This document shows positions 7,165 through 58,631 of a stretch of 64,000 bases of DNA, one piece after another; position 1 is the stretch's first letter, and the number at the start of each line of letters is the position of its first letter. The notes under the pieces are model-generated. The model did no database searches and was not told the origin of the DNA. It was given only the letters and a program-made list of their open reading frames with translations. A program made the translations under genes and the position numbers. Source of the stretch: an uncultured Verrucomicrobiae bacterium (lineage in GTDB: Bacteria > Chlamydiota > Chlamydiia > Chlamydiales > Rhabdochlamydiaceae); the NCBI GenBank assembly GCA_963818965.1, contig CAWFUG010000009.1, positions 320,001 to 384,000 of the forward strand, in the 5' to 3' direction.

Positions 7165-7168
7165 CCAC
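7140..7168. repeat. Isolated arm of TATACC palindromic element
   Basis: 28/29 identical to 58397-58425. Confidence 0.85.
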
Positions 7169-14406: not shown

Positions 14407-14477
14407 TGTACCACAACCGGCTTGAAACTTCGAATTTGGCGCGGCCAAATTCGAAGTTTCAAGCCGGTTGTGGTGTA
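14407..14477. repeat. Short TATACC-family palindrome
   Basis: Perfect 31-bp stem ACCACAACCGGCTTGAAACTTCGAATTTGGC with GCG loop; related to 58313 and 58564. Confidence 0.85.
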
Positions 14478-18209: not shown

Positions 18210-18319
18210 CAAAGTCTAGGGAGATGGGGGGGCTGAAGAAATACACCCCCCTCTCTAGCAATTCAACACGGGAGCTTTCCCGAGGTCCTACGGCCAACTT
18301 TTGAGTCCACTTAGGTATA
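18210..18319. repeat. Truncated TATACC-family element (central hairpin plus right arm)
   Basis: GGGGGG-CTGAAGAAATAC-ACCCCCC hairpin, GGGAGCTTTC motif, and TTTTGAGTCCACTTAGGTATA end matching the reverse complement of 52040. Confidence 0.7.
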
Positions 18320-25914: not shown

Positions 25915-25941
25915 AACGAATTTTGAGTCCACTTGGATAAT
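25915..25941. repeat. Degenerate arm of TATACC element
   Basis: TTTTGAGTCCACTTGG matches the arms at 18300 and (reverse) 52045. Confidence 0.55.
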
Positions 25942-26026
25942 AGGACAGCTTCTTACGGAAGTGGGTAGTTGAAAAAAATAGGGCAGGACTCCCATGATGC
26001 AAAGCAGTATACCTGGAGAAGAGGCC

Positions 26027-39401: not shown

Positions 39402-39479
39402 AAAAACCTAAAAGGGCAAATTTTTTGCCGCAGATGATAACGCAGCCTCTTTCTAAATGGGAAGGAAAATTTTTTCTCT

Positions 39480-43032: not shown

Positions 43033-43792
43033 AATTACCTTCTAGGCGTTCGTAGCAGGGGCAAGCGCTACCGTGATTGAATTGTAAAAAGTTCCAGGCT
43101 TCTCGGTTCAAAGGGTATAGAGGGTGCTCTGATTCTGTGTAAAGGGTGAAATGTGCATTATGACAAATTTCGCTGAGTTTTTGGCCGATTTTGAGATTAA
43201 TGTAGGAGTGGGGATGGGAGCAGAGTGGTTCCAGTCGCTCTTTGGCTAGCGGCTGGATCGTCTCATGGGAGAGCCATACACAGCGCTTGAGAATGATAAA
43301 GGCGTCAGAGAGGTAGCGCGGCTTGAGTGTTTCGATGGTGGCGTGGTGCTTTTGCGGGAGGTTTTTTAGAATAGTAAATGAAGCAGAGTTATACCCCGTC
43401 CGGTCAGGAATTGCGAATTTGAGCTGCGTGAAAGCTCCCGCGATTCCACGATCGAAAAGGGGGCCAGTATTGAGGAAATACAGGCCCCCTTTTCGATCGT
43501 GGAATCCCGGGGCTTTGACGCGCTCAAATTCGCAATTCCTGACCGGGCGGGGTATAAGTGCTGTGTCTGTTATTTTGTCAAATGCGATGAATCTCTCCTC
43601 TGGGTCGGAGATTTTTTGCAGTGTTGCTTTTTGGTCTGCCCAATAAGCATCTTCCGTGGAGGCGTGTGTGTGTTGCTGGGACAGGTAGCGTTGAGAAGAG
43701 GAAGGATCAGAGAGAAATGTGGTGGATAGAGGGTACATAGAGGAGTTCCAGTGGTTAAATACGACATCGTCACCACTTCCTATGGGCGCCAC
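42968..43792 (-). CDS. Hypothetical protein containing an in-frame palindromic insertion
   Basis: 274-aa ORF; start uncertain; 3' end overlaps rsmE. Confidence 0.45.
   Translation of the reverse strand: MAPIGSGDDVVFNHWNSSMYPLSTTFLSDPSSSQRYLSQQHTHASTEDAYWADQKATLQKISDPEERFIAFDKITDTALIPRPVRNCEFERVKAPGFHDRKGGLYFLNTGPLFDRGIAGAFTQLKFAIPDRTGYNSASFTILKNLPQKHHATIETLKPRYLSDAFIILKRCVWLSHETIQPLAKERLEPLCSHPHSYINLKIGQKLSEICHNAHFTLYTESEHPLYPLNREAWNFLQFNHGSACPCYERLEGNYATRPVLHRSAPREGEDLRDY
43390..43556. mobile_element. Full-length TATACC palindromic element (167 bp)
   Basis: 35-bp outer stem (1 mismatch), perfect 24-bp inner stem, GTATTGAGGAAATAC centre. Confidence 0.9.
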
Positions 43793-43929
43793 CGCCTCTC
43801 GCTTAAGGTTTCTAAAGGAATTCAGGCTTACGCCTTTACGTTTGGCGCGGAATAGATATTTTAATTTTTCCTAACATTGTGGCAAAATCCCAGGTGCTTC
43901 TTTCTTTTAGATAGAGCTTGGAGGATGTC

Positions 43930-46002
43930 ATGACAATGTCGACAAGCACAACGACTACAACCATAACAACATCGGTCTCGTTGGCTACCACCCAACAGGC
44001 CCTGTTTGGGACAGAGTCCGCACCTGCTTCTCCCGTCCGCGTTAAGCGAGAGGCTCCGCGATCGATCGGTCGCAGCAACACGGGGATTCTTCACCTGCCC
44101 CCTACGCTCATTCCAAAACCCTTACAAGAGGGTAAGGCCAAATCGAGCAGGGAACAATTAGGGGATCGGTCTTATCAGATCTCTGTCCGCAGAGCTTCGG
44201 GCGGAGAGCGGCATCCCCATGTCATTACTGTAGAGATCCCTATTTCTACCTTCCTTGATTTTATTCCGATTCCGGTCATTTCGCCGAAAAAGTGGAGGGA
44301 AGGTCTCTCTTGCACATTGGAACACGAGGCTCTCCAAAGCGATTTCTCATCAGATGAAAAAAAGAATATCATCCAGGGGCTATACAATAGATCTTTAGAA
44401 TATTCGAGTATCTTGCAGCGGATTCAGAAGACTATAGAGGCATTTGGTCGTGTGAAACGGTATGAGTTTTTAAAGCAATTTTCGCAAGAAACCAATCCTC
44501 TGCGTTTTTCTGAGCGCTATGGTAAGCTCTGCGAAAAATCGCGCTATCAAGGCGATGTATTATTCCACATTGCTGGAGCGGAACAGGCTCTTCACATCAT
44601 TCAGAGCGCAAGCGATCTTCAAGGGGAAGTCCTCAAGCGGAAGCTCGATATGGAATTTGATCGGATCGCATTTGTGGAGACGAAAAGAAAAAATCTATTG
44701 AATTCCTCCTTCGTATTTGAAAAAAAATTCGATGTAGAAAATCCCCAGATCATCCCTATCCCTATCTTTTTACTCGATTACAAGGAATTCGCTGAGACCT
44801 TTCGATCTTACTATTCCAAGGGCCCTTTTCCAGCGGATGCGCTCGTTATCAATGGTAAGAATATTCCCATCCCCAATTACGCCACTCTTCAAATAGAGGA
44901 GGAAAAGGGAGAAGAGTTTTTTCAGGAGTGGCTCATTGCGATCCTTCAACAAGAGCTCAACATTAAGGCAGCCCTGAGTGAAAGAGAGCAGATCGCCCTT
45001 TTTGCTTCCGAGGCGTCAGATGTGACTTTTTCTCCCAGGTCCTCCTCTGGCAAGGAAAAACGCAAGAAGAAGCAAGCAAAGCTTAAAAAATCAATCAAAG
45101 CCCATCTCGCGCAGGAATTCAAAACTCCCTGTGGGGATCTGTATTTTAAAATGACAGAATTTTTGACGAAATTAAGCAAAGAAAAGCAAACATTGGAATT
45201 TGCACAGCAGATGCTCCCTCATTCTTATTACCTCAGCAAATACCTTCGCTCCCACCCGGCATTTGCAGAAAAAAAGTGGGACGAAGTAGCAGATGAGCTC
45301 TATCGTATTTATTGCCGCACGCATCAGCTGCAGAAGAAATACCAAGAGATCCCTTTGTTGGCTCTTTTGAAATCGCTGTGTTATTCCGTTTTCGGGACAG
45401 CGGGTTGTCTCTTAGACGGGACTATATGCCCTAGTCTATCTATGCATGACGATGGGCTTGCTCCTCGACTCTGTGCGACCTATAGTAAGCCGAAAAAAGT
45501 TTCAGTGGTGCGCAAAGATGTGGAAGAGAATATTTCCGACTCGCTCGCCCTTCTCAAAGCATTTCCCTCTAGTGACAACGAGAACGATCTCAAATTCCGC
45601 GTTTACCAGCTGCAACACGATCATGCGTTCATCGGCTCTTATCGCGTTGAAATGGTCGGAAAGTTCTTTGAGGTAACGCACATTAAGGCATTTGATATCC
45701 TCCGTGTGGAAACGAGCAAGGAACCAGAAGAAACACCTGTTGCCAGTGGGGCGTCGAGTGAAAAAAAGGAAGAGAACAAAAAGAAGGCGCACTGTTTCGT
45801 GCATTGGGTGATAAAAGGGGAGCTCGGCTCGATCGACCATTCAGCGGAAATGCGCTTTGCCGATTTCGTCTTTCCTGCCGATTGTCTTTACCCAGAGCGC
45901 AAAATCATCATGGACAAATTTCACTTGGAGTGGCGCACGTGTCCTTGGGGGCATTATTTGAAACGGAATGATATAGTAGCTTCTCCTTCAGGCTCTCTTT
46001 GA
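43930..46002 (+). CDS. Hypothetical protein with Thr/Ser-rich N-terminus (effector-like)
   Basis: About 690-aa ORF; no family recognised. Confidence 0.7.
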   Translation: MTMSTSTTTTTITTSVSLATTQQALFGTESAPASPVRVKREAPRSIGRSNTGILHLPPTLIPKPLQEGKAKSSREQLGDRSYQISVRRASGGERHPHVITVEIPISTFLDFIPIPVISPKKWREGLSCTLEHEALQSDFSSDEKKNIIQGLYNRSLEYSSILQRIQKTIEAFGRVKRYEFLKQFSQETNPLRFSERYGKLCEKSRYQGDVLFHIAGAEQALHIIQSASDLQGEVLKRKLDMEFDRIAFVETKRKNLLNSSFVFEKKFDVENPQIIPIPIFLLDYKEFAETFRSYYSKGPFPADALVINGKNIPIPNYATLQIEEEKGEEFFQEWLIAILQQELNIKAALSEREQIALFASEASDVTFSPRSSSGKEKRKKKQAKLKKSIKAHLAQEFKTPCGDLYFKMTEFLTKLSKEKQTLEFAQQMLPHSYYLSKYLRSHPAFAEKKWDEVADELYRIYCRTHQLQKKYQEIPLLALLKSLCYSVFGTAGCLLDGTICPSLSMHDDGLAPRLCATYSKPKKVSVVRKDVEENISDSLALLKAFPSSDNENDLKFRVYQLQHDHAFIGSYRVEMVGKFFEVTHIKAFDILRVETSKEPEETPVASGASSEKKEENKKKAHCFVHWVIKGELGSIDHSAEMRFADFVFPADCLYPERKIIMDKFHLEWRTCPWGHYLKRNDIVASPSGSL

Positions 46003-47197
46003 ACGACTTACCCTCTTGCAATAATTCAGATAGAGTTGCGACGTCGAAGGTCGCAAGCTTCTTAAAGTGGGTTTGTAGTGCAGGTAGCGGCAAAAAATCA
46101 AACAGAAGCTTGAAGCGGTAGTCGCGCTGAAAGAGATCTTTCTCTATCCCATAGGGGATAACTTCAGCTTCTTCTACCTGTACAGCATCTTCTGATCCCT
46201 TGGGGACATAAAAGGTTAAGAATTCCGTCGGATAGATCTCTCGGAATACAGAGAGTTCTGCAAACCAAGGAGCTCTTTGGGGTAAGACGATCAGGATCGA
46301 CTCGTGGCGGAACCGTTTTTTGAGACGCCCAGGCGTCTGCTGTTTCCAGCGGTTATGGGAAAAGAGCCATTGCCCCGGATTTTTTTGGATGCTCTTTTCG
46401 AGCTCTAAAAGAGAGGCGCGCATCATCCGATCGACCTCTTGGTCGAGAGGTTGATCGCTCTTTGGCCAAATCGGATCGGAATAGTGGATGATGTATTTTC
46501 CCTTCTCTCTTCGCGTCGTAGCGACCATGATCGGAGCACCTGTACGATGGGAGAGAATGGCAGCCATAGGCGAGGTCCAGGCACGCTTTCCGAGAAAGGG
46601 GGAGCTGTAGCCGCTATCGGGCATCCCTTGATCCCCGACGATTCCTAAAAAAGCACCCCGCTTGAGCCCTCGAAGACCTTCTCTAATCGCATTCTTAGGT
46701 GCGATGATCTTGCCTCCATACTTCTGCCTAATCGAGAGAATCCAAGAATAGAGCAGAGAATTAGCCACCGGGCGACCGATAGCCACTCCCGGCATCCGCT
46801 TTGTCCCCTCTAAAAAGAGCACTTCCCAATTGGCTTGGTGTCCACAGAAGAAGATGATCGGCTTACCCTGGCGCATCAGCTCATCAGCACATTCGGGATT
46901 TTCACAATGAGCCACCCGGTGGATCTCTTTTTCTGAGGCGAACTTCGCATACTCGAGGCAAGTGATCATGAGATTCTGTAACGACGCCTTCGCTAGTCTA
47001 ATGAGTTCTTTTTCCGATAGGGCAAGCGTAGAGGCGAGACTCAGATTGCTGAGCGTGCGCTTGCGGTACTTGGGAAAAAGAAAATAGAGGAGCAGTCCCA
47101 ACTGATTCCCTAACCGATGGATTGCAGAATAGGGAAGCCAGCGGAGCGGCCACGTAAACAGGAGGATGAGAGTAAAAGAAATTCTATGCACTAACAT
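45908..47197 (-). CDS. htrB: Lipid A biosynthesis lauroyl acyltransferase
   Basis: GHQANWE, VGDQ, PGQWLFSHNRWK; synteny with ybbR-dacA-cydAB. Confidence 0.88.
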   Translation of the reverse strand: MLVHRISFTLILLFTWPLRWLPYSAIHRLGNQLGLLLYFLFPKYRKRTLSNLSLASTLALSEKELIRLAKASLQNLMITCLEYAKFASEKEIHRVAHCENPECADELMRQGKPIIFFCGHQANWEVLFLEGTKRMPGVAIGRPVANSLLYSWILSIRQKYGGKIIAPKNAIREGLRGLKRGAFLGIVGDQGMPDSGYSSPFLGKRAWTSPMAAILSHRTGAPIMVATTRREKGKYIIHYSDPIWPKSDQPLDQEVDRMMRASLLELEKSIQKNPGQWLFSHNRWKQQTPGRLKKRFRHESILIVLPQRAPWFAELSVFREIYPTEFLTFYVPKGSEDAVQVEEAEVIPYGIEKDLFQRDYRFKLLFDFLPLPALQTHFKKLATFDVATLSELLQEGKSFKESLKEKLLYHSVSNNAPKDTCATPSEICP

Positions 47198-47277
47198 ATG
47201 GATACTAGAATACCAGGAGGGGGAATTTTGTGGCCTAGGATTGTTCAGATAGGGATGTTATTGCATAAATAGCTGAA

Positions 47278-47377
47278 TTTCACCACAGAGAGGAAAAACC
47301 ACAGAGAGGGGAAACCACAGAGAGGGAATTTTTTAATATGAATTTCCTCTCTGTGGTTTCCCCTCTCTGTGGAGAAA
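47278..47377. repeat. CCACAGAGAG palindromic element (3+2 units)
   Basis: Three 16-bp units followed by two inverted units. Confidence 0.9.
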
Positions 47378-47482
47378 GTGCATTTATTCAAAATGGAATG
47401 ATGGGAAACTAGATTAGGTCTTCATGGCAAAAGCTCTTGAGAATAAAGGAACTGGGAAGGTAGACTCTGCGTCTTTAAAAAT

Positions 47483-47648
47483 TATACCACGCGCGCTTGA
47501 GGATGATGCATTTGAGCGCGTCAAAGCCCCGGGGTTCGACGATCGGAAATGGAGGTAGTATTGATGAAATACAACCCCCATTTCCGATCGTCGAACCGAG
47601 GGAGCTTTCACGCACTCAAATGCATCATCCTCAAGCGCGCGGGGTATA
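47483..47648. mobile_element. Full-length TATACC palindromic element (166 bp)
   Basis: About 35-bp outer stem, 24-bp inner stem, GTATTGATGAAATAC centre. Confidence 0.9.
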
Positions 47649-47665
47649 ACAATGGGATTTATTTT

Positions 47666-48604
47666 ATGTTTAAAGCAGATGGTTGCGCACCCGGTCGTTC
47701 CTCTCCGCCTCATTATCCGCCCCCTTTTCCCCCTAGTGATCTTTCCAGGTCCAATGCGCGCTTAACGCAAGATGCGTTTGCCGAGGAGTTGGAAAGCGCG
47801 CTTTTGCAATTGCAAAATAAACTAGACGCGGTTTTTTCAGAAAAAACACCGGACACTCTTAAGGGTTTTATCTATGTCCCGCCCCAGCCAGAGTATAGAG
47901 AGGCTTTAGAGTCGCGCCGTTCCTGGAGTATTCTGTATCCTCTTTTTTGCGGATTTCCCCTTTCTCAGCTGAAGACACTCGCTTTAGTCAACCAGAACTG
48001 GAATCTCTGTGCGAGGAAAGTAGTGGGGGAGCAGATGCGGGAAGAGGGCGCCTATTTTTTAAAAGAGGTTGCAACCTATTTGAAACGGTTTGAGGGGGAG
48101 TATTTCGACTACAAAAAGGATCAGCTCGAAGACTTTAGAGAGGAATATACAGAAAAGGTAGAGTGGGCCGAGTATTACCCCCTCGCATCACAAGCGAAGT
48201 TGATCGATCTCATCGCCTGTGAGTTCTCTAAAATATTTGAATTTGAGGAAGTGCAGATACTCCAATACAACACCGCTGAAAGTCCCTTTACCGATCGCTT
48301 TTTTCAATTGTACAACCGCTGTGGAGAGATCTTAGACATCGTCATTAGCGGAGACAAAAGGACAAAATTTTTTAAGCTCAACCAGCATGTTCATGTGCTA
48401 TTGCGAGAAAAGTATTTTGATTTGGCGATGATTACAGCGCAACATATCCCCGAGTGTGGTGTGGTCGATTTGAGTAGACCTGATCGGCCTTATTATGATC
48501 CGAAAAAGGAACTCATAGAACGCGTGCGGCACGAAGCGGCAGCAGAAGGGGTAATCATAAAAGCTAAACCAGTCGTTAATTCAAGAGCTGGAATAACCGC
48601 TTAA
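47666..48604 (+). CDS. Hypothetical protein with F-box-like motif
   Basis: ILYPLFCGFPLSQLKTLALVNQNWN; Pro/Ser-rich N-terminus. Confidence 0.6.
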   Translation: MFKADGCAPGRSSPPHYPPPFPPSDLSRSNARLTQDAFAEELESALLQLQNKLDAVFSEKTPDTLKGFIYVPPQPEYREALESRRSWSILYPLFCGFPLSQLKTLALVNQNWNLCARKVVGEQMREEGAYFLKEVATYLKRFEGEYFDYKKDQLEDFREEYTEKVEWAEYYPLASQAKLIDLIACEFSKIFEFEEVQILQYNTAESPFTDRFFQLYNRCGEILDIVISGDKRTKFFKLNQHVHVLLREKYFDLAMITAQHIPECGVVDLSRPDRPYYDPKKELIERVRHEAAAEGVIIKAKPVVNSRAGITA

Positions 48605-49728
48605 GCGCGCAAGGTCAGATCGACGATCTTTTTCAGTTGAAGGGAAAAGTCGAGATGGCGGGATGCGGCGCGGATCGCGCGGCTGCTCGCGACGGTTTTG
48701 CGCTTCTCGAACGTTTGGCGTAAGAGGGCAGCGAACTGGGAGGTGTCGTCGAGATCGGGGATGACGCAACCTGTCTCAGGGGTCAGGACTTCTTTCCCCC
48801 CGTTGTGCGCGGAAGAGAGGACGAAGAGGCCCATGCTCAATGCTTCGACGGTGACGTTGGCGAAGGGATCGTAGAGCGAGGGAATGATGAGCGTATCTGC
48901 CATCTGGTAAAACAGAAGAGAGGAAGGCTGGGGGCCGAGAAAAGAGACTTTTTGACTCAAGCCCCGCCGCTCTGCGCCCCTCTCAAAGTATCTGAGATTC
49001 TTTTCCTTTCCAACCACACTCAGGTGAAAATCTTCCCCTTGCAGTAATGCTAAAGCGTTCAGCAGTTTTTCTAGTCCTTTTCTTTGGTAGTTATGACCGA
49101 TGAAGAGCAGTTCATGGGTTGTCTTGCGCGGACAGAGTCTCTCTTTTTCCTCCTCCCAACGATCGAACGCCCCTTGTTTTTCCATCCATTCGACTCCATT
49201 GTGCACGACGGCAATTTTTTCAGGATCGATCGCATACTGGTTTAAAATCTCTTCCTTGACCATCTGAGAATTGGTGAAGAGCACTTTGAGCGCCGGATGT
49301 TCGAATGTCTTTTTTTCGAGGCGTAAAATAGCGCTGTGGAGAGGATTAAAGGCAAAGCTCTGCTTTTTCCACCACCCTTCTTCTTGAGCACGCCTTTTAA
49401 GGTAGGCGGCGTGGGAGCCATTGCCGGCGCGGTGGTGGGTTTGGAACCGGCACCGATCGAGGCTGAAGACGATCGACGTCGGGTGTTTTTGGAGATAGGC
49501 GTGACAGGCGCGGTCGAAATGGAGGAGGTTGAATACACTCAAGGCGTGGGCGATGGAAAAGGAATGGATCCTCAGAGCAGGGTGCTCGAAGGGGGGCGTA
49601 GGGGAACCTGTTGTGAGAAGCGTTACCTCTGCATTTTCCTGACAAAAACGCTCTGCGATTTGCCAGGTGTATTTCTCGAGACCCCCAATCCGATTTAAAT
49701 TGCTCTTGATGAGTATGATTTTAAGCAT
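48601..49728 (-). CDS. GT4 glycosyltransferase (RfaG/WaaG-like)
   Basis: GGLEKY, RKGLE, PSLYDPFANVTVEAL. Confidence 0.88.
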   Translation of the reverse strand: MLKIILIKSNLNRIGGLEKYTWQIAERFCQENAEVTLLTTGSPTPPFEHPALRIHSFSIAHALSVFNLLHFDRACHAYLQKHPTSIVFSLDRCRFQTHHRAGNGSHAAYLKRRAQEEGWWKKQSFAFNPLHSAILRLEKKTFEHPALKVLFTNSQMVKEEILNQYAIDPEKIAVVHNGVEWMEKQGAFDRWEEEKERLCPRKTTHELLFIGHNYQRKGLEKLLNALALLQGEDFHLSVVGKEKNLRYFERGAERRGLSQKVSFLGPQPSSLLFYQMADTLIIPSLYDPFANVTVEALSMGLFVLSSAHNGGKEVLTPETGCVIPDLDDTSQFAALLRQTFEKRKTVASSRAIRAASRHLDFSLQLKKIVDLTLRA

Positions 49729-49750
49729 GAACCTTGATTCTTTTTGAATA

Positions 49751-49837
49751 TATACCCCGCGCGCTTGAGGATGGTGCATTTGAACCGCGGGGCTTTCACG
49801 CGGCTCAAATGCACCATCCTCAAGCGCGCGGGGTATA
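49751..49837. mobile_element. TATACC palindromic element (87 bp)
   Basis: Outer arms near-identical to the 10614 copy. Confidence 0.88.
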
Positions 49838-49848
49838 ACATTATTCGT

Positions 49849-49925
49849 TTTCACCATAGAGGGGAGAAACCACAGAGAGAGAATGAAAAAATATCTCTCT
49901 GTGGTTTCTCCTCTCTGTGGTGAAA
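49849..49925. repeat. CCACAGAGAG palindromic element
   Basis: 2+2 inverted units, 11 bp from the TATACC element. Confidence 0.85.
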
Positions 49926-51191
49926 TTAAGGCTCTGGGGTCGACAGAGTAGCGGGTTTCTCGACTTGAATCTGGTCCCCATTTAACGAGATAGCGAGATC
50001 GAACTTAGTCTCATCCGATTCGAAGAGTTGGAAGCGGTTCATGTAACTGCGGAAGCGGTTGCGGAGGTATTCCTCTCGCAATGTCGGTTGCATGAGGCGG
50101 ATATCATTGTCAGAGACATCAGACATAAGGATGGAGACATACTTGTCTTCGAGTAATCGGGGATCGACGAATTGGACACTCCAGTCGAGGAATTTACGGT
50201 CGGTGCGAGGGGAGACGATGATGAGGATCTCGATCATGTCTCGCACCGTTTCTAAAAAGAGGGAATCGACCCCATTGGCATACAGGCGGGATTGAATCAA
50301 AAAAGCGCCGTTCAAGGGTTTCAATAGGGGGCTTGGCGCCATGCGCACAGTATCTGGGTTCAATTTCTGCAAATTCTGCGGAGGGAAGAACAAAGAGATA
50401 GGGATCATCGCATTCAAGGGAAGCTGATTGTAGCGGATGAAATCGATGCGCAGCCCCTTGGCCTGAGGGTCATCGATCTCGATCGGTTGATCAGAGAGGA
50501 TGGGGATATTGATCTGCTTCCACTGGTCAGGGACGAAAAAGCTCACGACATCGGAATTAGTCCCCGTAGTTTTTCGAGAAATGGCATCCAACTCCGCTTT
50601 AGGGATGTCGCTCAGATTGAACGTCACGCGCTGCTCTTTCGTCTTGAGCCGCTTGATCACCTCTTCTGGTCCGCTCACGCTCATAGTGAGTCGATAAGGC
50701 CAAACATCTAAGAACTGGTAGCCCCGCGGCGGTTCTCCGATCGGTTGTGTGATGACGATGGGGATTTGATCTGTGGTGAGCTTCGTCATGCGCACGATGA
50801 AATTGGGATGGTAAACCCGAGAAATTCCCTGGTTGATGTCGATCTCTGGGTTTAATGAGACTAGATTCTTCTTAGAGACGACGACGATCCATTCGCCCGA
50901 TTTATCGGCTGCATCCACCGTAATCTCGAGATCGGAAGAGGTGATCTCGTCGATGACAGCGCGATTGCCGACGAGAGTGAGCGTCAATTTCTTAGCGAGT
51001 TTGCCGTTGGGCTGCATCCCCTCTACCGTTTTCCCGGCGGGTAAGTTGATGATCCGGATGGGGACATTGCTGACATTTCGAGTGCTCGTGAGCGTGTGAT
51101 TGACGACGAGCCACGTGATGATCGCTAGGATAATCGCAACCAATTTTCTCGGCCAATGTTCGACGAACAGTTTTAGAATGAGACTTTTCAT
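49926..51191 (-). CDS. ybbR: YbbR/CdaR-like diadenylate cyclase regulator
   Basis: HWPRKLVAIILAIITW TM; ATGA overlap with dacA. Confidence 0.8.
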   Translation of the reverse strand: MKSLILKLFVEHWPRKLVAIILAIITWLVVNHTLTSTRNVSNVPIRIINLPAGKTVEGMQPNGKLAKKLTLTLVGNRAVIDEITSSDLEITVDAADKSGEWIVVVSKKNLVSLNPEIDINQGISRVYHPNFIVRMTKLTTDQIPIVITQPIGEPPRGYQFLDVWPYRLTMSVSGPEEVIKRLKTKEQRVTFNLSDIPKAELDAISRKTTGTNSDVVSFFVPDQWKQINIPILSDQPIEIDDPQAKGLRIDFIRYNQLPLNAMIPISLFFPPQNLQKLNPDTVRMAPSPLLKPLNGAFLIQSRLYANGVDSLFLETVRDMIEILIIVSPRTDRKFLDWSVQFVDPRLLEDKYVSILMSDVSDNDIRLMQPTLREEYLRNRFRSYMNRFQLFESDETKFDLAISLNGDQIQVEKPATLSTPEP

Positions 51192-51988
51192 TGGCGGAGC
51201 CACTCCCTCAAATTGAATTTTCTCTTAAAGTCTGCGTTTGATGGGGGGGTGAAAACACTACGGATGATCCCTTTGAAGCGATCGATTTTCACGCCTGGGG
51301 TCATGACCCCATCTCTGGAGATGGAGACCCGTCCTGTCTCTTCTGAAATCACGATGATGAGCGCATCGGTTAGCTGCGAAGCCCCGAGCCCTGCGCGGTG
51401 ACGCGTTCCCATCGAACGGGTGAGCTGGGAGTTGTCTTCAGAAAGAGGGAGGATCACAGCCGCAGCTACGATCGTCGTATCTCGGATGATCACAGCCCCA
51501 TCGTGTAGAGGCGTTGTCGTCGCGAAGATAGACTCGAGCAGCTCTGAGGAGAAGTTCGCGTTTAAAATCACCGCTTTGCGCGCCATCTCGTCGAGATTGT
51601 CTTCATTTTCCAAGACGATCAGAGCGCCGAGTCGCTTTTCCGCCATCCGGTAGGTCGAGTTCGCCAGATGGTCTAAAAATTTATCGAATTCCGTCATCTC
51701 TCTATAACGACGCCCTTTTAAACTCAATTTCGAGAGGGCGACGCGCAGCTCTGGCTGGAAGATGATCAAGATCCCGATTACAGCGACATTTCCGATGAGG
51801 AGCATGATCTTATGCAAAATCGGCAAGTTGAGCCAAGAGGAGACAGCGAAGATGAACAAGAAAGCGAGCATCCCCAAGACGAGGTCCATAGAGCGGGTAT
51901 TCCAGAAAAAAGAAAGGAGATAATTGAGCATCACGGCGATGATGACAATCTCAATCAGAGGAACAAACCCATGGAAGATAGGACTCAT
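51188..51988 (-). CDS. dacA: Diadenylate cyclase
   Basis: Three TM segments; IFQPELR, PLHDGA, GTRHRA, ISEETG. Confidence 0.93.
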   Translation of the reverse strand: MSPIFHGFVPLIEIVIIAVMLNYLLSFFWNTRSMDLVLGMLAFLFIFAVSSWLNLPILHKIMLLIGNVAVIGILIIFQPELRVALSKLSLKGRRYREMTEFDKFLDHLANSTYRMAEKRLGALIVLENEDNLDEMARKAVILNANFSSELLESIFATTTPLHDGAVIIRDTTIVAAAVILPLSEDNSQLTRSMGTRHRAGLGASQLTDALIIVISEETGRVSISRDGVMTPGVKIDRFKGIIRSVFTPPSNADFKRKFNLREWLRQ

Positions 51989-52039
51989 TTTTATACCCTT
52001 GCAGCGAGCTTGATAATAGCAGACGAATTTTTTTGAGTA

Positions 52040-52106
52040 TATACCCAAGTGGACTCAAAAGTTAGCCGTAGGGCCGCTTGATAAGCTCCCGCAAGGGGAT
52101 GGTATA
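52040..52106. repeat. Partial TATACC element
   Basis: TATACCCAAGTGGACTCAAAAGTTAGCCGTAGG...AAGCTCCCG...GGTATA. Confidence 0.75.
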
Positions 52107-52194
52107 ACCACAGAGAGGGGAAACCACAGAGAGAAAAAAATCCTCTCTGTGGTTTCCCCTCTCTGTGGTTATTTTCTCTTTGTGCAACAACGGC
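52105..52194. repeat. CCACAGAGAG palindromic element (left flank replaced)
   Basis: 2+2 units plus GCAACAACGGC right flank. Confidence 0.85.
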
Positions 52195-52268
52195 GGAAGA
52201 CACGGTTATTGACAATTTATTTGAGCGGAGTAGGATTAGAAGGAAATTAAAAACTTAAGGGCGCTGTT

Positions 52269-53636
52269 ATGGATGCTGTCATGCTCTCGAGAATTCAGTT
52301 CGCTTTGACGAGCTCTTTCCATTACATTTACCCTCCTTTGAGCATTGGGCTGGGGCTCATGTTGGTGATCTTCGAGGGAATTTACGTAAAGACTAAGAAC
52401 CCCCTCTACCGGCAAATCACTCGATTTTGGGTCAAGATCTTCGCCTTGACGTTTGCATTGGGGGTCGCAACAGGTCTCGTGCAGTTGTTCGGATTTGGGA
52501 CCAATTGGGCCCGTTATTCCCGCTTTGTCGGCGATGTCTTCGGGAGCGCTCTCGGTGCAGAGGGGGTCTTCGCATTTTTTCTAGAGGCAGGCTTTTTAGG
52601 GGTGATGCTGTTCGGTTGGGAGCGTTGTAGTGCTAAATTCCACTATTTTGCCACGATTTGCGTATCAGCTGGCGCCCATTTTAGCGCGATTTGGATCGTC
52701 GTCGCCAACTCTTGGATGCAGACGCCTGCAGGCTATAAAATCGTAGGAGAGGGGGGGCAAGCTAAAGCTGTCGTCACTGACTTTTGGCAGATGGTCTTCA
52801 ATCCCTCTTCCATCGATCGTTTGATCCACGTCGTCTTGGGCTGTTGGCTCTCAGGGATCTTCTTCATCTTGAGCGTGACTGCTTATTATTATTTCAAAGA
52901 CAAATACCGAGAGTTTGCTCAGAAGACGATGAAGCTCACTCTGTGGGCAGCTGTCGTCGTACTCATCCTCCATCTGATCTCCGCAGACACCACGGCGCGC
53001 GGGGTTGCCTACAATCAACCCTCGAAACTCGCTGCCATGGAAGGCGTTTTTGAGACGAAAAAAGCAACCCCTCTTACCCTCTTCGGATGGGTCGATGTGA
53101 AAAACCGGGAAGTCAAGGGGCTGAAGATTCCGGGACTATTGAGTTTGCTCACTTATTACAATACAGAGGTGCCTGTTAAGGGGTTCGATCAGATCCCCGA
53201 AGATGAGCGGCCGCCGATCCAAGCTGTCTTCCAAACCTACCACATCATGGTGCTGATGTGGGGTCTCATGGCCTTTGTCACTGCGTGCGCCCTCTGGCAA
53301 CTCAAGCGGGGACGACTCCAGCGTACAAAATGGCTGCTGTGGTCGTTGATGTTCTCCGTTGGGTTTCCCCAGATCGCTAACCAATGCGGATGGGCGACAG
53401 CGGAGATCGGCCGTCAGCCCTGGATCGTCTATGGCGTTCTCAAGACAGTACACGGAGTTTCACCCAATATCAGCCCCCATCAAGTCTGGCGATCGATTTG
53501 CATGTTTCTAGTGATCTACACTCTCCTCTTCATCCTCTTTATTTTCCTACTCGACCGAAAGATCAAACACGGACCAGAAGAGGTTGAAGATGAACCTGAG
53601 TTTCGTGACACTCTTACAAAAAAGGGGGCGAGATGA
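52269..53636 (+). CDS. cydA: Cytochrome bd oxidase subunit I
   Basis: SRIQFA, FHYIYPP, EGVFAFFLE, QPSKLAAMEG, EIGRQPW. Confidence 0.96.
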   Translation: MDAVMLSRIQFALTSSFHYIYPPLSIGLGLMLVIFEGIYVKTKNPLYRQITRFWVKIFALTFALGVATGLVQLFGFGTNWARYSRFVGDVFGSALGAEGVFAFFLEAGFLGVMLFGWERCSAKFHYFATICVSAGAHFSAIWIVVANSWMQTPAGYKIVGEGGQAKAVVTDFWQMVFNPSSIDRLIHVVLGCWLSGIFFILSVTAYYYFKDKYREFAQKTMKLTLWAAVVVLILHLISADTTARGVAYNQPSKLAAMEGVFETKKATPLTLFGWVDVKNREVKGLKIPGLLSLLTYYNTEVPVKGFDQIPEDERPPIQAVFQTYHIMVLMWGLMAFVTACALWQLKRGRLQRTKWLLWSLMFSVGFPQIANQCGWATAEIGRQPWIVYGVLKTVHGVSPNISPHQVWRSICMFLVIYTLLFILFIFLLDRKIKHGPEEVEDEPEFRDTLTKKGAR

Positions 53637-54661
53637 GCACAGACGTTCTTGCACATCTTTGGTATTTCGTCGTCGGCATCTGCGTCGTCTTTTACGTCGT
53701 TCTTGATGGGTTTGATTTGGGAGTGGGTTGTTTGCATCTTTTGGCGAAAAAGGATGACGAAAGGCGGATTTTTCTCAATGCCATCGGTCCTGTCTGGGAT
53801 GGAAATGAAGTGTGGCTTGTCATTGTAGGGGGCGCTCTCTTTGCAGGGTTTCCCGACGTCTACGCTACCCTCTTTTCTGGATTTTACGACATCTGCATGA
53901 TCTTGCTCGCAGGACTGATCTTCCGTGCCTGTGCGATCGAGTTCCGCAGCAAAGGGCCTTCTCTCCGTTGGCGCTCCACATGGGACCGGGTATTCTGTGT
54001 CGCGAGTATCGCGATCGCCTTTGGACTGGGATTGACCTTGGGGAACCTAATGGAGGGGATTCCTCTCGATGCGGAAGGAGACTTCGTCGGTACATTTTCC
54101 CTCTTCTTAAGACCCTATCCGATTCTGATCGGCCTTTTTACCGTATCACTGCTTAGCATGCACGGCTCGATCTACTTAGCGATGAAAACAGAAGGGGCTT
54201 TGAATGAAAAGGTCAGGCTTTGGGCAAAGCGTTGCATCGTCCTCTTCGTCGGGATGTTCATCTTGACGACTGTCGCCACTTGGGGTGCTGCCCCTAACAT
54301 GATCGAGCGCTTTCTCGAAGAGCCGTGGTTCTTTCTCGTGCCCCTCGTTTCGATTCTCGCCATCCTCGCCGTCCCACGGGCTTTTTCTCGCAATGAAGAT
54401 GGGTGGGCATTTCTCTACTCGTGCTTTTCGATCCTGTTTCTCTTCGGCGTCTTCGGCATTGCGACCTACCCTGATCTCATCATGTCGTCGATCGACCCTC
54501 AGCATACTAGCCTCACGCTCTATAATGCGGCGGCCTCACCCCTTACGCTCAAAGTACTCCTGATCATCGTCGCCATAGGCATCCCCCTCGTCCTCGCCTA
54601 CGGCACCATAATCTACCGGATCTTCCGCGGCAAGGTCAAGATCGGCTCTACGAGTTATTGA
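53633..54661 (+). CDS. cydB: Cytochrome bd oxidase subunit II
   Basis: LDGFDLGVG, GPVWDGNEVWL. Confidence 0.96.
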   Translation: MSTDVLAHLWYFVVGICVVFYVVLDGFDLGVGCLHLLAKKDDERRIFLNAIGPVWDGNEVWLVIVGGALFAGFPDVYATLFSGFYDICMILLAGLIFRACAIEFRSKGPSLRWRSTWDRVFCVASIAIAFGLGLTLGNLMEGIPLDAEGDFVGTFSLFLRPYPILIGLFTVSLLSMHGSIYLAMKTEGALNEKVRLWAKRCIVLFVGMFILTTVATWGAAPNMIERFLEEPWFFLVPLVSILAILAVPRAFSRNEDGWAFLYSCFSILFLFGVFGIATYPDLIMSSIDPQHTSLTLYNAAASPLTLKVLLIIVAIGIPLVLAYGTIIYRIFRGKVKIGSTSY

Positions 54662-55664
54662 AAGAGGTTTTATCCTTTCGTTTGTCGGATACAAAGGCGA
54701 ATCTCGCTTCTACACTATGTCTGAACGGATCGCGATCGCCTTCTTTTTCTTCATGGGTGACAGCCGCATGGGTGACAGCCGCATGAGGGGTCTCAGGCGT
54801 TTTAAAAACGATCACACCCCTTCTCTTGATGTCATTCTGGATAACCCATGTATGATAGGGTCTTGATTCAAGAGCCAAAGAAGGGACCAAAATGTCTGGG
54901 GGGAAAGGGGTTTTTATTTGAGAAGTATAATGTTTTAATTCCTCTGAAGGATCTTTCAATGTACTGATATCCACCAAAGCTAAAGTGTTGATGGAAGGGC
55001 GTTCATTCAAAGGGATCCACACATTGACGATTTCAGAAAACGCAACGTCATCAAGAGCTATCGAATCATCCTCAAAAGCCTCCTCCAATCCCTCTTGCAA
55101 AAGACGTTCAAAGGTATCCAATACGATTGGAAACTGGTCTTTAGAAAAATCGACGTGCGCCAGGGGGAGGATTTTCTGTGCATTCCAGAAATTTCCCGTA
55201 TGTCTATACTGAAGAGGGCTGATAGGAATGACAGCATCGAATGGAATCCCTTCTTTTTTCCCCCAGTCGGTCAAAAATAAGCGAACATCCTCGTAAATGC
55301 AAAGCATGTTGTGATAGGATCGTTCCTCTACGTAATTTCCGAGATGTTCTACTGTTTTTTCGTCAAATGTGCAAAATTCAAACCCATTTTCTTTGAAATT
55401 AAACTGTTTTGTGATCTCTAGCCCTGAATAGGCATGAATGAGTGGCGTCTTCTTTACCAAAACACCCTCTTCCGTAAGGCGCTCGAAATCATCTGCGCTA
55501 ATGGTTTGATCTTCTAAAGAAGGACGATTGGCGAAGTAGATCGATGAAACTGCCTGTTGCGCTTTTTCAGTGTTGGGTTGAGCGCTGCCTGTCACAACAG
55601 TCTGGTCGGAAGAGTCTTGAGGGTTTTGGAAACCCGTTTGATTGAAACTGTTTACTGTTGACAT
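54648..55664 (-). CDS. CmcJ/NvfI-like oxidoreductase with low-complexity N-terminus
   Basis: AHVDF, NVWIPL, LALVD, TPHAA, RHSVEARF. Confidence 0.6.
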   Translation of the reverse strand: MSTVNSFNQTGFQNPQDSSDQTVVTGSAQPNTEKAQQAVSSIYFANRPSLEDQTISADDFERLTEEGVLVKKTPLIHAYSGLEITKQFNFKENGFEFCTFDEKTVEHLGNYVEERSYHNMLCIYEDVRLFLTDWGKKEGIPFDAVIPISPLQYRHTGNFWNAQKILPLAHVDFSKDQFPIVLDTFERLLQEGLEEAFEDDSIALDDVAFSEIVNVWIPLNERPSINTLALVDISTLKDPSEELKHYTSQIKTPFPPDILVPSLALESRPYHTWVIQNDIKRRGVIVFKTPETPHAAVTHAAVTHEEKEGDRDPFRHSVEARFAFVSDKRKDKTSFNNS

Positions 55665-55933
55665 TATAACTCCTGTGTTTTTTTATTTATAATAACTTTA
55701 ATTATATCATTAAATAGATTTAATTTAAACTATGTATAAACAATTTTTTTTATACGGAGTGGGTTTAAGGCTTAAGTTATTGATATTCTGAGTGTTAGAG
55801 CTTTATCTTAAAGCAATTTCTTTGTGCGACAGAAAATTACTTGAAGAAAAAAACCGCTGAAATGCGACCATATCTCGTTGGTAATCAAGTAGCTAGGGAT
55901 TATAAAGCAGATCAGCGAGGTTTTTTCTTCAAG

Positions 55934-56815
55934 TCATTTTTTGTCGTATACGAAGGTGATTTTGGACAAAAGATCGAGGAAATAGGCAGTGGACCAGGTT
56001 TCTAAGACATTGGGGTTACGAATAAAATGGATGACATCTGCTTTGGCCGCAGCAATATCCAATGCTTTCATGCGTTGAGTATACAATTGTGAGAAAATTT
56101 CAGGCGTTAAATGGAGGTCTTTCTCAATGTAACCCGTTTGTTTTAAGCGCGCCTCAAGATGGGACAGATGAAGGGGGATTTTTCTAGCGACATACCAAAC
56201 CAGATCATACCAATCTCTCCCTTTAACACGCCCTTTCCATTCTCTTGCTAATAAGGCGCTCATTTTTCCTGCGAAGAGATCGGATAAAGCATAACTTTTA
56301 ACATAGTACAACCCAGGGAGATGCATTTCAGTCATTTCCGTTTTAAAACCAGGAGGGGGATCGGTATCGATTTCGATCTTTATTTTAATATTTTCATCGA
56401 CATGAATGCGTTGTCTTTCTTGTGCGTTCAAGCCAATTCGTATGACCTTTTCTAAGGTGTTTCCCTTTAGAAATGCAGACAAAACGGCACTTTGATGTGT
56501 TTTTTCTTTTTTTTGGATCGAAATATCAAATCCATAACTTTGAATATGTAATTCCACTGATTTTAGGTAAGGCTCCAATTTGAAATGAGGATCAGGTTCG
56601 AGAAGGGAAAAATCCAAGTCTTCGCTAAAACGATCGAGTTGATACAAAATTCTCAAACAGGTTCCTCCGTAAAAAGCACCTTTTTCAAAGAATTTTGCCC
56701 TTGCTAAACCTTCCAAGGTAATTTCTTGGATGATTTCTTGGAGGGCATTTCTGAAATCATCTTTCGTCTTACAGGAGTATTTTTTTAGCCACTGAGTGAT
56801 CACTTGATTAATCAT
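55934..56815 (-). CDS. AbiEii/AbiGii-like nucleotidyltransferase toxin
   Basis: FYGGTCLRI, RFSEDLDFS, GKMSALL, KGRDWYD. Confidence 0.9.
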   Translation of the reverse strand: MINQVITQWLKKYSCKTKDDFRNALQEIIQEITLEGLARAKFFEKGAFYGGTCLRILYQLDRFSEDLDFSLLEPDPHFKLEPYLKSVELHIQSYGFDISIQKKEKTHQSAVLSAFLKGNTLEKVIRIGLNAQERQRIHVDENIKIKIEIDTDPPPGFKTEMTEMHLPGLYYVKSYALSDLFAGKMSALLAREWKGRVKGRDWYDLVWYVARKIPLHLSHLEARLKQTGYIEKDLHLTPEIFSQLYTQRMKALDIAAAKADVIHFIRNPNVLETWSTAYFLDLLSKITFVYDKK

Positions 56816-57428
56816 AAATTGCTGCAATAAGGAGGTTTGTCATTTGGTAGGCTTTGAGGATTTTAATGATGGTGTTTTTGTTTAGTTTTCTTAAATCAGA
56901 TGGTTCCATTCGGAGATTTTCGTAAAGGTGCTCTTTCATCTCACTTACAATTGAAATGTCCTTGACCTGGGAAATAAAATCGACCAACGCTTTTTCAGGA
57001 CTTGCCATCAGGTAGCTCCCTTCCTGAGGAAGTTCTATGCTGATGAGTCCTAGGGAATAAACAGAAGGTGGACGTCGTGAATAAGAAAAAGTGGTTAGGG
57101 GTGTTTGGAATGTTTTTGAGCGATTCAGGCAAATGCTCGTGATCGTCATGACTCTCTCGGGAATCAGCCCATATTTTGATAAAGCGTATTCAAGTGAGAT
57201 ATAGGAAGGGGAATAGACGAGGTTGGCCAGAATTTCAAGGGAGATCGCTTTTTTCTGGTGGTGGGATCCAAAAATGTAGATCCCTTTTCGGATTCTAATA
57301 ATGGACTTATTTTTCAAAAGAAGGGAAATTTTATCGCGCGGCTTCTTATATTCCCTCAGGTGGTGCATCAGCACTTGGTAGTCAAAAATCTCACCCTGGA
57401 CAGCTTCTCTTAAGGTTTCAAAAGACAT
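56808..57428 (-). CDS. AbiEi-like type IV antitoxin
   Basis: IRIRKGIY, PSYISLEYALSKYGLIPE, ASPEKAL. Confidence 0.85.
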   Translation of the reverse strand: MSFETLREAVQGEIFDYQVLMHHLREYKKPRDKISLLLKNKSIIRIRKGIYIFGSHHQKKAISLEILANLVYSPSYISLEYALSKYGLIPERVMTITSICLNRSKTFQTPLTTFSYSRRPPSVYSLGLISIELPQEGSYLMASPEKALVDFISQVKDISIVSEMKEHLYENLRMEPSDLRKLNKNTIIKILKAYQMTNLLIAAIYD

Positions 57429-57468
57429 TCTTACTTTATACCCCTTTTCTTCATTTTATCTGGTCTGT

Positions 57469-57501
57469 GCTCATATGTCCATTATTTCTGGACATACGAG
57501 C
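57469..57501. promoter_or_regulatory. Inverted repeat upstream of the AbiE operon (candidate operator)
   Basis: GCTCATATGTCCA-N7-TGGACATACGAGC. Confidence 0.6.
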
Positions 57502-57701
57502 TTTTGTTATTTATGTAAGTTGCTTATTATTAGTCGCTTGCGTTTTGTGTAAAAAGTGGGCTTGTGGATAAACGGCTCAGTGTATTACTCCCCCCGTCGT
57601 TTGTTTTTTACTCTAAAAGAGGTGTCTGTGTTTGAGTTTGATGCGAAGGAATCGATCCTGCGCCCGAGAGGAGCGCGTTTTGTCGTGTACAAAGAAGCAA
57701 T

Positions 57702-58292
57702 CTAACGGCTGCCGGGGAACCCGACGACAGCTTTATAGCAGAGGAGGAGGTGTTTGACGCCGTTCATGGCGCGGTGAGGCTTTTCTTCCTTAGGCAGGCT
57801 GTGGAAGACGGCGATTTTATCCTTGGAGTAGCCGATCTCCCAGGGAAAGTTCCCTTCGCCCTTGGCGGCGCTCTTGAGCGATTCGACCCAATGCATCGAA
57901 GCGAGGTCGAGCCAGTGGTAGGGCCAGAGCATCTTTTCTTGGGCATCTACGTCGATAAGTTGGGAAAAGAAGACCCGGTCGAAGGAGGGGTTTTGGCACA
58001 TAAAGACAGCGGCGTTGCGTTTGATCCCATTTTTGTCGAAGTGGATGCAGATTTGTTCAGCGACAGCTTTCCGAGAAGGCGCCCTTTCGACTTCTTCCCA
58101 CGTAAATCCGTTGACTTTAAGGCTTTCAGGATCGCTTAAGGCCCACTCCTCAGAAGAGGTGGCGACGATCGACTCGAATGTATCCAAAACGTTGCCAGAA
58201 AACACATCGACGATTTGGAAAGCGATCTCGATCACCTTGTGCTTTTGCGCATTAAGACCATTTGTCTCACTATCTAGAAATATCCCCAGCAC
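57702..58292 (-). CDS. DEDDh 3'-5' exonuclease
   Basis: FLDSETNG, QNPSFD, LDL, PHRAMNG. Confidence 0.85.
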   Translation of the reverse strand: MLGIFLDSETNGLNAQKHKVIEIAFQIVDVFSGNVLDTFESIVATSSEEWALSDPESLKVNGFTWEEVERAPSRKAVAEQICIHFDKNGIKRNAAVFMCQNPSFDRVFFSQLIDVDAQEKMLWPYHWLDLASMHWVESLKSAAKGEGNFPWEIGYSKDKIAVFHSLPKEEKPHRAMNGVKHLLLCYKAVVGFPGSR

Positions 58293-58312
58293 GGTAAACC
58301 CTATTTAGTTTG

Positions 58313-58631
58313 TATACTCCAGTCGGCCTCAAACTTGGAATTTGGCCGGCGCGAAAGCTCCCGCCAAATTCCAAGTTTGAGGCCGACTGGGGTATATATA
58401 CCCCTTCCACCTCAATCGTAACCACAAGCAAACCGATTAAAAGCCTCAAAATTCGAATCAAAGGTCGGGGTCAATATTGAATTTAATATTAACCCCGACC
58501 TTTGATTCGAATTTTGAGAACTTTTCATTCGGTTTTCTTGGGTACGATTGAGGGGAAGGGGTATATACCACACTCGGCTTGAAGGACCCGATCCTTCAAG
58601 TTGTTTCGGTATACCCAATCACTTGGGTATA
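58313..58631. repeat. Tandem array of four TATACC...GGTATA hairpin elements (84, 169, 50, 22 bp)
   Basis: 58313-58396, 58397-58565, 58564-58613 and 58610-58631, joined at TA runs. Confidence 0.9.

What the first reader, a model, noticed from the sequence alone, without database searches (positions are those of the whole stretch)
43390..58565. Family of 166-169 bp TATACC...GGTATA palindromic elements: geometry conserved, stem sequence swapped
Seen: copies at 43390-43556, 47483-47648 and 58397-58565 share one plan: TATACC end, ~35-bp outer stem, a mismatch module (AAAGCCCCG opposite CGGGAGCTTTCA; AAAAGCCTCA/TGAGAACTTTTCA in the third), ~24-bp inner stem, and a central TATT-N-AATA mini-hairpin. 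The stems differ greatly (GTCCGGTCAGGAATTGCGAA vs GCGCGCTTGAGGATGATGCA vs TTCCACCTCAATCGTA), yet both arms changed together. In the first two copies the central loop has the same orientation while the mismatch module is flipped. Shorter derivatives lie at 7140, 10614, 14407, 18210, 25915, 49751, 52040, 58313, 58564 and 58610. Known: TATACCC/GGGTATA ends with TA duplication are features of ERIC elements, and TA targeting is typical of IS630/Tc1-mariner. Inference: a non-autonomous mobile family in Chlamydiota recognised by folded ssDNA/RNA structure rather than sequence, and mobilised in trans.
Basis: partly seen in the sequence, partly recalled or inferred. Interest (0 to 1): 0.85.

Follow-up and report, generated by a model that had tools for sequence, protein, structure and literature searches.

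The report
Hairpin mini-transposons that swap their ends
These are short hairpin-shaped jumping DNA elements, widespread in environmental chlamydiae, that borrow a transposase from IS630 insertion sequences and appear to swap their ends between transposase lineages, and the same IS630 lineage also matches the ends of the long-known ERIC repeats of gut bacteria.

Summary
The three 166-169 bp rods are among 60 full copies in this genome. The family is found in 44 of 150 Chlamydiota genomes.

They are non-autonomous IS630-type MITEs. Empty paralogous sites show a TA duplication. The outer stems match terminal inverted repeats (TIRs) of one TATAC/TATAG-ended IS630 clade, and both prefer the same target. 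So the ends are probably read by sequence, not by fold alone. This genome holds only an IS630 remnant.

Arms co-vary strictly Watson-Crick with no G-U excess. Loop isomers, chimeras and a symmetrised copy point to DNA-level arm copying (inferred). Subfamilies carry ends of different IS630 subclades, and one inner core also occurs with IS5-type ends. The asymmetric module is the most conserved part (79% versus 44%); its role is unknown.

One ERIC end matches gammaproteobacterial members of the same clade, which names a candidate ERIC transposase. The rods are not ERIC. The scan earlier noted an in-frame sulP copy in this genome. Verdict: new variant of a known kind.

The parts
43390..43556 (.). 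Full rod, end type A, 167 bp. It sits in frame in an orphan ORF (42968-43792, minus strand) whose gene status is unverified.
43390..43424 (+). Left TA plus outer stem (TIR), pairing with 43522-43556
43430..43442 (+). Long side of the conserved asymmetric module (extra T bulge plus two mismatches)
43467..43481 (.). Central AT-rich mini-hairpin with a 5-nt loop
43506..43517 (+). Short side of the asymmetric module
47483..47648 (.). Full rod, end type B, 166 bp; module flipped relative to the loop compared with the 43390 copy
58397..58565 (.). Full rod, end type G, 169 bp. G-type ends match chlamydial IS630 subclade 2; the G-type inner core is shared with IS5-ended rods.
58313..58396 (.). Type C rod with a central deletion, abutting the G copy
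58564..58613 (.). Short derivative sharing a TA with the G copy; right end of type J
58610..58631 (.). 22-bp minimal TATACC...GGTATA derivative
49751..49837 (.). Type B rod with a central deletion
10614..10710 (.). Type B rod with a central deletion
14407..14477 (.). Type F rod with a central deletion
15458..15492 (.).
52040..52106 (+). Type D left half including the module
18225..18319 (+). Type D right half (centre, module, TIR)
7140..7168 (+). Type G left-end fragment
25919..25942 (+). Type D right-end fragment

Best explanation
The rods are non-autonomous DNA transposons (type II MITEs) of a TATAC/TATAG-ended IS630 clade. SHOWN: they insert at TA and duplicate it; their outer ~26-30 bp match TIRs of that clade; they share its target preference. 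INFERRED: an IS630 transposase supplied in trans binds the TIRs and cuts and pastes the element, and G000's bursts date from an IS630 now lost or unassembled. INFERRED: because the element is an ~80-bp near-perfect palindrome, one arm is often copied onto the other at DNA level (template switching, hairpin repair or conversion). Crossovers in the stems invert the loop relative to the module, and crossovers between copies at the shared module or centre make chimeras that arm copying then re-symmetrises. This explains why both arms change together and how a core acquires matched new ends, from other IS630 subclades and even IS5-type ends. The asymmetric module is kept by selection. Most likely it is needed for amplification or persistence, as a binding site for the transposase or a host protein and/or a break in the palindrome that limits cruciform cleavage; this step is a guess. 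The net insert length is usually a multiple of 3 with open frames, so copies are tolerated inside genes, as with Rickettsia RPEs.
For: TA duplication: removing rod C1:218176-218342 plus one TA gives a sequence collinear with 5 paralogues. RlmD-like orthologues in 3 of 5 relatives lack the ~55-aa insert; the other 2 gave only weaker ~46% hits. TIR match: a complete 1113-bp IS630 with TATACC ends lies in G036. Against a profile of 40 Chlamydiota IS630 TIRs, distinct G000 rod ends score a median of 3.9 bits versus -13.3 for 963 other TATAC sites, and 27 of 47 exceed the background 95th percentile. In 25 of 39 other genomes the rod end scores over 5 bits with chlamydial subclade 1 (20) or subclade 2 (5) (tree). 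G371 (150 matches, capped) and G095 (76 matches) carry intact clade members whose TIRs rank 2-3 and 1-3 of 67 for their own rods. Target preference, R at -3 and T at -2: IS 50 of 85, G000 rods 43 of 113, other rods 44 of 126, random TA 577 of 5000. Arm copying: 54 of 63 pairs have two-sided changes, and 0 of 500 shuffles reach this. In non-G outer stems there are 20 private two-sided versus 19 private one-sided changes, against about 0.03 expected from independent hits. Stem G-T versus A-C: 18 vs 15 in G000 and 27 vs 27 elsewhere. Both loop isomers occur in 4 of 4 classifiable groups, and 1 of 60 copies has a fully symmetrised module. 11 of 104 paired ends are chimeric. End swapping: 6 cores homologous to the G-type core (shuffle p<=0.01) carry three non-TATAC end types, each the same on both arms. 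Two of those end types resemble TIRs of IS5-family elements in L012 and L016. Frame: 47 of 60 net lengths are 0 mod 3; 7 of 13 copies inside ORFs leave the frame open.
Against: No intact IS630 in G000, only a degraded remnant (E 4e-6); the genome is 88% complete. IS630 (PF13358) does not co-occur with rods across relatives: 5 of 15 rod-positive versus 8 of 25 rod-negative. 3 of 10 genomes with the clade transposase had no rods and one had only weak hits of another family. In 5 of 8 genomes holding both, the co-resident TIR is not near the top (ranks 13-62). The window's A and B types (43390, 47483) match no sampled TIR (all three profiles at or below about 0 bits). Rod ends score below true TIRs (leave-one-out median 11.9 bits). 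'Private' two-sided changes may be inherited from unsampled master copies, and single-linkage clustering merged types A and B. Frame preservation is weaker across genomes (19 of 35). The IS5-ended rods share the inner core but not the module, and nested insertion followed by deletion could produce them. No transposition or conversion event was observed.
Confidence: 0.8

Rival explanations
1. The folded ssDNA hairpin, with its extrahelical T and mismatches, is the substrate of a structure-reading enzyme (Y1/HUH as for REPINs, or a tyrosine recombinase as for attC sites), and the stem sequence is free.
For: The bulged module is the most conserved part across 39 genomes. Stem covariation is extreme. 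G000 has 4 tyrosine-recombinase matches over the Pfam cut-off, whose surroundings I did not examine. A and B ends match no sampled TIR.
Against: No Y1 transposase in G000. TA duplication, TIR matches sorted by IS630 subclade and a shared target preference all point to a DDE/IS630 enzyme.
Confidence: 0.08
2. The covariation reflects selection on a structured RNA, for example an RNase III-processed regulatory hairpin as reported for Correia/NEMIS elements.
For: Very stable rod. Precedent for RNase III/E effects of MITE transcripts (PMC10969869 passages; PMC2229807 passages).
Against: No G-U excess on either strand. No orientation bias behind genes: 12 vs 7. No Rfam family at gathering score; only sub-threshold miRNA-precursor hits. 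RNA effects may still be a by-product.
Confidence: 0.07
3. IS630-mobilised MITE, but the arms stay matched only through selection: the transposase needs two matching TIRs and compensatory mutations accumulate in master copies. No copying mechanism is involved.
For: Old copies do accumulate one-sided mismatches, so correction is not constant.
Against: Natural IS630s of the clade have left and right TIRs that differ at many positions, so matched ends are not required. Inner stems, which are not TIRs, co-vary too. A copy with a symmetrised module, indel included, needs tract copying.
Confidence: 0.12
4. Assembly artefact (fold-back chimeric reads).
For: Contig C4 is a 21.6-kb fold-back palindrome.
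Against: Fixed length, a conserved asymmetric module, empty sites, and presence in 44 of 150 separately assembled genomes.
Confidence: 0.01

Closest known systems
ERIC/IRU/RU-1 (127-bp MITE of Enterobacteriaceae and Vibrionaceae)
   Same: TATAC[CT] termini with TA, long stem-loop, non-autonomous. One ERIC end scores 16.4 bits on the gammaproteobacterial subclade of the same IS630 clade (best of 418 E. coli background sites: -0.4). The ERIC core resembles the rod module over about 17-19 nt.
   Different: 161-173 bp and near-perfectly palindromic, with a second inner stem. The motif points the opposite way relative to the ends. K-12 ERIC copies score at most 21.6 bits on the rod model versus 94-180 for full rods. 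The host phylum differs.
RUP of Streptococcus pneumoniae
   Same: TA-targeting MITE tied to an IS630 by TIR similarity (IS630-Spn1; PMC2229807 passages). The same line of evidence is used here.
   Different: RUP is 107 bp with stop codons in all six frames (same paper). The rods are longer, mostly frame-preserving, and carry ends of several IS630 subclades.
Rickettsia palindromic elements (RPE)
   Same: ~150-bp palindromes inserted in frame in unrelated genes of an intracellular bacterium (PMC10969869 passages). Here aroA, rlmD-like, recC-like and sulP carry rod-derived peptide.
   Different: Sequence homology to RPE was not tested. Here the TA duplication and a matching transposase clade are identified.
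YPAL/RU-2 of Yersinia
   Same: ~168 bp, stem-loop forming.
   Different: YPAL lacks TA termini and has 3-26 bp duplications (PMC2229807 passages).
Bacillus cereus bcr1
   Same: ~155 bp, with compensatory changes maintaining a cruciform-like structure (PMC3184786 passage).
   Different: bcr1 has 5-bp direct repeats, and its covariation was interpreted at RNA level. Here G-T and A-C mismatches are symmetric.

Membership tests
IS630-type MITE (type II) | Terminal inverted repeats around a short core with no transposase | tested here: met
IS630-type MITE (type II) | TA target-site duplication | tested here: met
   Empty paralogous sites hold one TA; orthologues lack the insert
IS630-type MITE (type II) | TIRs similar to an autonomous IS630 | tested here: met
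   27 of 47 G000 ends above the background 95th percentile; 25 of 39 genomes over 5 bits. Window types A and B individually unmatched.
IS630-type MITE (type II) | Cognate transposase present in the same genome | tested here: inconclusive
   G000: remnant only. G371 and G095: present and top-ranked; 5 of 8 genomes holding both are not.
IS630-type MITE (type II) | Mobilised in trans by that transposase | not testable with these tools
   Needs a transposition assay
ERIC | ~127 bp length | tested here: not met
   Rods 161-173 bp; 8 K-12 ERIC copies at 124-127 bp
ERIC | ERIC consensus sequence along the element | tested here: not met
   ERIC loci at most 21.6 bits on model R1, below an unrelated hairpin in the window (40 bits)
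ERIC | Central GGAGCTTAC-type core | tested here: inconclusive
   Local similarity p<=0.05 in 10 of 42 rods, median p 0.145, opposite orientation
ERIC | TA at both termini | tested here: met
Rickettsia RPE | In-frame insertion into protein genes | tested here: met
   7 of 13 in-ORF full copies leave the frame open
Rickettsia RPE | Sequence homology to RPE families | not tested
   No RPE sequence was fetched
REP/REPIN (RAYT-mobilised) | Associated Y1/RAYT transposase | tested here: not met
   PF01797 not found in G000, 88% complete
YPAL/RU-2 | No TA termini; variable 3-26 bp duplication | tested here: not met
   TA termini and TA duplication
Any Rfam family | Score at the gathering threshold | tested here: not met
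   0 hits in the window; only sub-threshold hairpin hits

The most novel reading that the evidence does not exclude
The hairpin core is a long-lived chassis rather than a decayed IS. Its palindromy lets any end acquired on one side be copied to the other, so it outlives individual transposases by re-tooling across IS630 subclades and even to IS5 enzymes. The phylum-wide bulged module is a dedicated site read in the extruded hairpin or cruciform by the transposase or a host factor and is required for amplification. ERIC would be the gammaproteobacterial branch of the same IS630-dependent system.
Probability: 0.3. Interest if true: 0.85.

Novelty: new variant of a known kind. Interest (0 to 1): 0.66.

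Why it matters
(1) It describes an abundant mobile family of environmental Chlamydiota, about 1% of this genome and present in 44 of 150 genomes, that adds 55-residue loops to housekeeping enzymes. I found no description of it in the searches run. (2) It gives a concrete mechanism for how a non-autonomous element can survive loss of its transposase: arm copying plus end capture. (3) It makes an old question testable. Delihas 2007 (PMC2229807, passages) states that TIR-IS similarities had not been found for bacterial MITEs other than RUP and that transposase mobilisation lacked experimental support. A specific IS630 clade with ERIC-matching TIRs on Vibrio and enterobacterial plasmids is a ready candidate. 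From recall, unverified, some IS reviews already group ERIC with IS630-related MITEs in general terms; three papers that might bear on this were not held.

Tried and rejected
Transposases in G000: PF13358 and PF01797 gave nothing. The only multi-copy transposase seen in a self-comparison of 2147 crudely called ORFs was an IS4-like one in 3 copies with unrelated ends.

Co-occurrence of rods with PF13358 across 40 relatives: none. A first profile dominated by gammaproteobacterial TIRs fitted rods poorly (5 of 50 ends above 0 bits); only the Chlamydiota profile fitted.

Rods outside the phylum: no match in plasmids by blastn, none in viral contigs by exact module pattern, and 0 of 5 Gammaproteobacteria carrying the IS630 clade by covariance model. 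This also shows the model does not fire on any hairpin, although it gave 40 bits to an unrelated window hairpin.

Rfam: nothing. No sigma-70-like promoter at the 43390 copy. No orientation bias. The ORF around 43390 has no homologue.

Sequencing runs: no RNA holder listed. The one DNA run covered two short pieces away from the rods, so it was uninformative.

The count of 23 of 60 abutting ends came from a loose pattern and was dropped. Inspection's 18 rows leaves about 11 true abutments. One search crashed after its first table and was rerun. The tree is the quick tree; the careful search did not finish; 2 short rows were dropped. G045 was not scored.

Papers: passages only were read for PMC10969869, PMC3184786, PMC2229807, PMC3733652 and PMC5896051; PMC2874221 gave reference-list hits only. 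No supplements were read. PMID 16533821, PMC1291288 and PMC7190074 were not held. Searches for a prior description were.
Full report
Observation. The three elements are present as described and fold far better than shuffles (z -18 to -22). The window is C9:320001-384000 of a 2.24-Mb, 88%-complete genome. A same-order genome is labelled Chlamydiae. A strict scan found 86 TATAC-ended palindromes, 51 of them 160-175 nt. A relaxed scan gave 60 full copies, peaking at 170 and 167 nt, plus many deletion derivatives and solo ends (241 loci; 393 ends of 13 types).

Distribution. BLAST found the element in 15 of 40 relatives. A covariance model from 32 copies found it in 44 of 150 phylum genomes, G000 included, in 10 of 27 families. 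It was found in 0 of 26 genomes of family f20, whose listed genomes are 1.0-1.2 Mb (probably Chlamydiaceae, my inference); one genome was not scored. Inspected hits carry the module in 35 genomes. It was not found in 5 Gammaproteobacteria, in plasmids or in viral contigs. Between 39 genomes, mean identity is 0.79 for each module side, 0.56 for the inner stem and 0.44 for the outer stem.

Mobility. Removing one rod plus one TA gives a sequence collinear with five paralogues. RlmD-like orthologues in 3 of 5 relatives lack the insert. Of 60 copies, 47 have a net length divisible by 3; 13 lie inside ORFs, versus 233 of 400 random TA sites; 7 of those 13 keep the frame open. Carriers include EPSP synthase, RlmD-like, RecC-like and SulP proteins. 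An earlier scan note (e1-3868245) reported the sulP case. Across genomes the frame rule is weaker (19 of 35).

Mobiliser. G000 has no PF13358 or PF01797 match, only an IS630 remnant, and IS630 as a whole does not co-occur with rods. But G036 holds a complete 1113-bp IS630 with TATACC ends. Its relatives form a TATAC/TATAG-ended clade in Chlamydiota (50 of 400 genomes), Legionellales-type Gammaproteobacteria and Vibrio and enterobacterial plasmids. The quick tree shows three main subclades. Rod ends fit a profile of 40 chlamydial TIRs far better than other TATAC sites do (median 3.9 vs -13.3 bits; 27 of 47 above the 95th percentile), though less well than true TIRs (11.9). They sort by subclade: types D, E and J and 20 of 39 genomes go with subclade 1; types G, C and F and 5 of 39 go with subclade 2; the window's A and B types match none. 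In G371 an intact member sits inserted among nested rods. In G371 and G095 the resident TIRs rank in the top 3 of 67, in G098 3rd-4th, and in five other genomes not near the top. IS and rods share a target preference. I conclude IS630 mobilisation in trans; this is inferred, not observed.

Why both arms change together. 54 of 63 pairs show two-sided changes (copies are related, so this is not a probability). The changes are Watson-Crick with no strand bias, G-T about equal to A-C. Private two-sided changes are as common as one-sided ones, 20 vs 19, against about 0.03 expected, with the caveat of unsampled master copies. Loop and module occur in both relative orientations in all 4 classifiable groups (12 copies unclassified), and 1 of 60 copies has a symmetrised module. 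11 of 104 paired ends are chimeric, and outer and inner stems are mosaic. Natural IS TIRs of the clade are not perfectly matched, so perfect symmetry is not a transposase requirement. DNA-level arm copying plus inter-copy recombination explains these best.

End swapping. G000 also holds other 160-172 bp rods with different ends. Six cores of one such family are homologous to the G-type inner core (palindrome-preserving shuffles, p<=0.01), while matching only 4-5 of 42 rod cores overall. They carry three non-TATAC end types, each symmetric. Two of those end types resemble TIRs of IS5-family elements in G036 and G034. These rods have a different mismatch module, so the GAAAGCTCCCGCG module goes with IS630-type rods only. 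Nested insertion followed by deletion is a sufficient origin and is itself a route to end capture.

Module. It is conserved in sequence and asymmetry and rarely symmetrised (1 of 60 in G000; 2 of 76 elsewhere), although copying should erase it. Selection for amplification or persistence is inferred. No RNA evidence bears on it.

Relation to ERIC. K-12 ERIC copies are not members by length or model score. The core similarity is inconclusive. But one ERIC end scores 12.7-16.4 bits on the gammaproteobacterial subclade profile in 4 of 12 distinct ends; the other end scores about 1.5, and none of 418 E. coli background sites exceeds -0.4. A mixed profile gave 8 of 12 ends above 5 bits. This names a candidate ERIC transposase clade.

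Literature. Passages of PMC2229807, PMC10969869, PMC3184786, PMC3733652 and PMC5896051 describe RUP, ERIC, RPE, YPAL, bcr1 and QMITE but no chlamydial family. Searches listed none by title or abstract opening. The library lacks most subscription papers, and three relevant ones were not held.

Verdict. A real, apparently undescribed, phylum-wide IS630-type MITE family: a new variant of a known kind, with unusual arm copying, end swapping and an unexplained conserved module. Interest 0.66.

Noticed in passing
G000 genome-wide; window 24591-24741, 47278-47377, 49849-49925, 52104-52172: A second, very abundant hairpin family built on ACCACAGAGAG units (dozens of copies), often nested with the rods and with GGCGTTGTTGCATAA-ended elements. 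From recall, such repeats accompany GxxExxY proteins; not tested.
   Followed up: no
G000 C11:347445-347608, C11:18446-18610, C1:312616-312777, C11:188220-188391, C8:219499-219634: Further rod-like families of 136-172 bp with other ends. Several converge on 160-172 bp, and their cores are not detectably related to the TATAC rods.
   Followed up: partly
G000 C2:113868-114037, C8:219266-219437, C1:295449-295616 and cores near C1:37974, C1:199863, C8:382317: Rods sharing one core and module but carrying three different IS5-like end types.
   Followed up: yes
L075-L087 versus L088-L094: E. coli ERIC ends match TIRs of IS630 elements on Vibrio, Escherichia, Klebsiella and Enterobacter plasmids.
   Followed up: partly
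G000 contig C4: A 21.6-kb fold-back palindrome centred on a fragment resembling the start of the IS4-like transposase, duplicating genes of C12; possibly an assembly artefact.
   Followed up: no
window 35965-41780: Three tandem LRR proteins, two with a C-terminal NEL E3-ligase domain: effector-like.
   Followed up: no
window 18929-24573: UvrA-like gene split into three ORFs.
   Followed up: no
window 55934-57428: AbiEii-like nucleotidyltransferase with an upstream partner ORF; possible type IV toxin-antitoxin pair.
   Followed up: no
L245 (G000 C9:99500-100900): The sulP frame is open through the rod, but the ORF ends 96 codons later in unrelated-looking residues, suggesting a separate downstream frameshift.
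   Followed up: no
G000 C9:237740-237878: Degraded IS630 remnant with a G-type rod fragment just downstream.
   Followed up: partly
L114 (G371:C2:49562-53578): Intact IS630 inserted at the terminal TA of a rod that is itself nested in the centre of another rod.
   Followed up: partly
L150, L164 (G161): Rods with type-A-like TATACT ends but a wholly different interior: a possible reverse case of core swapping.
   Followed up: no
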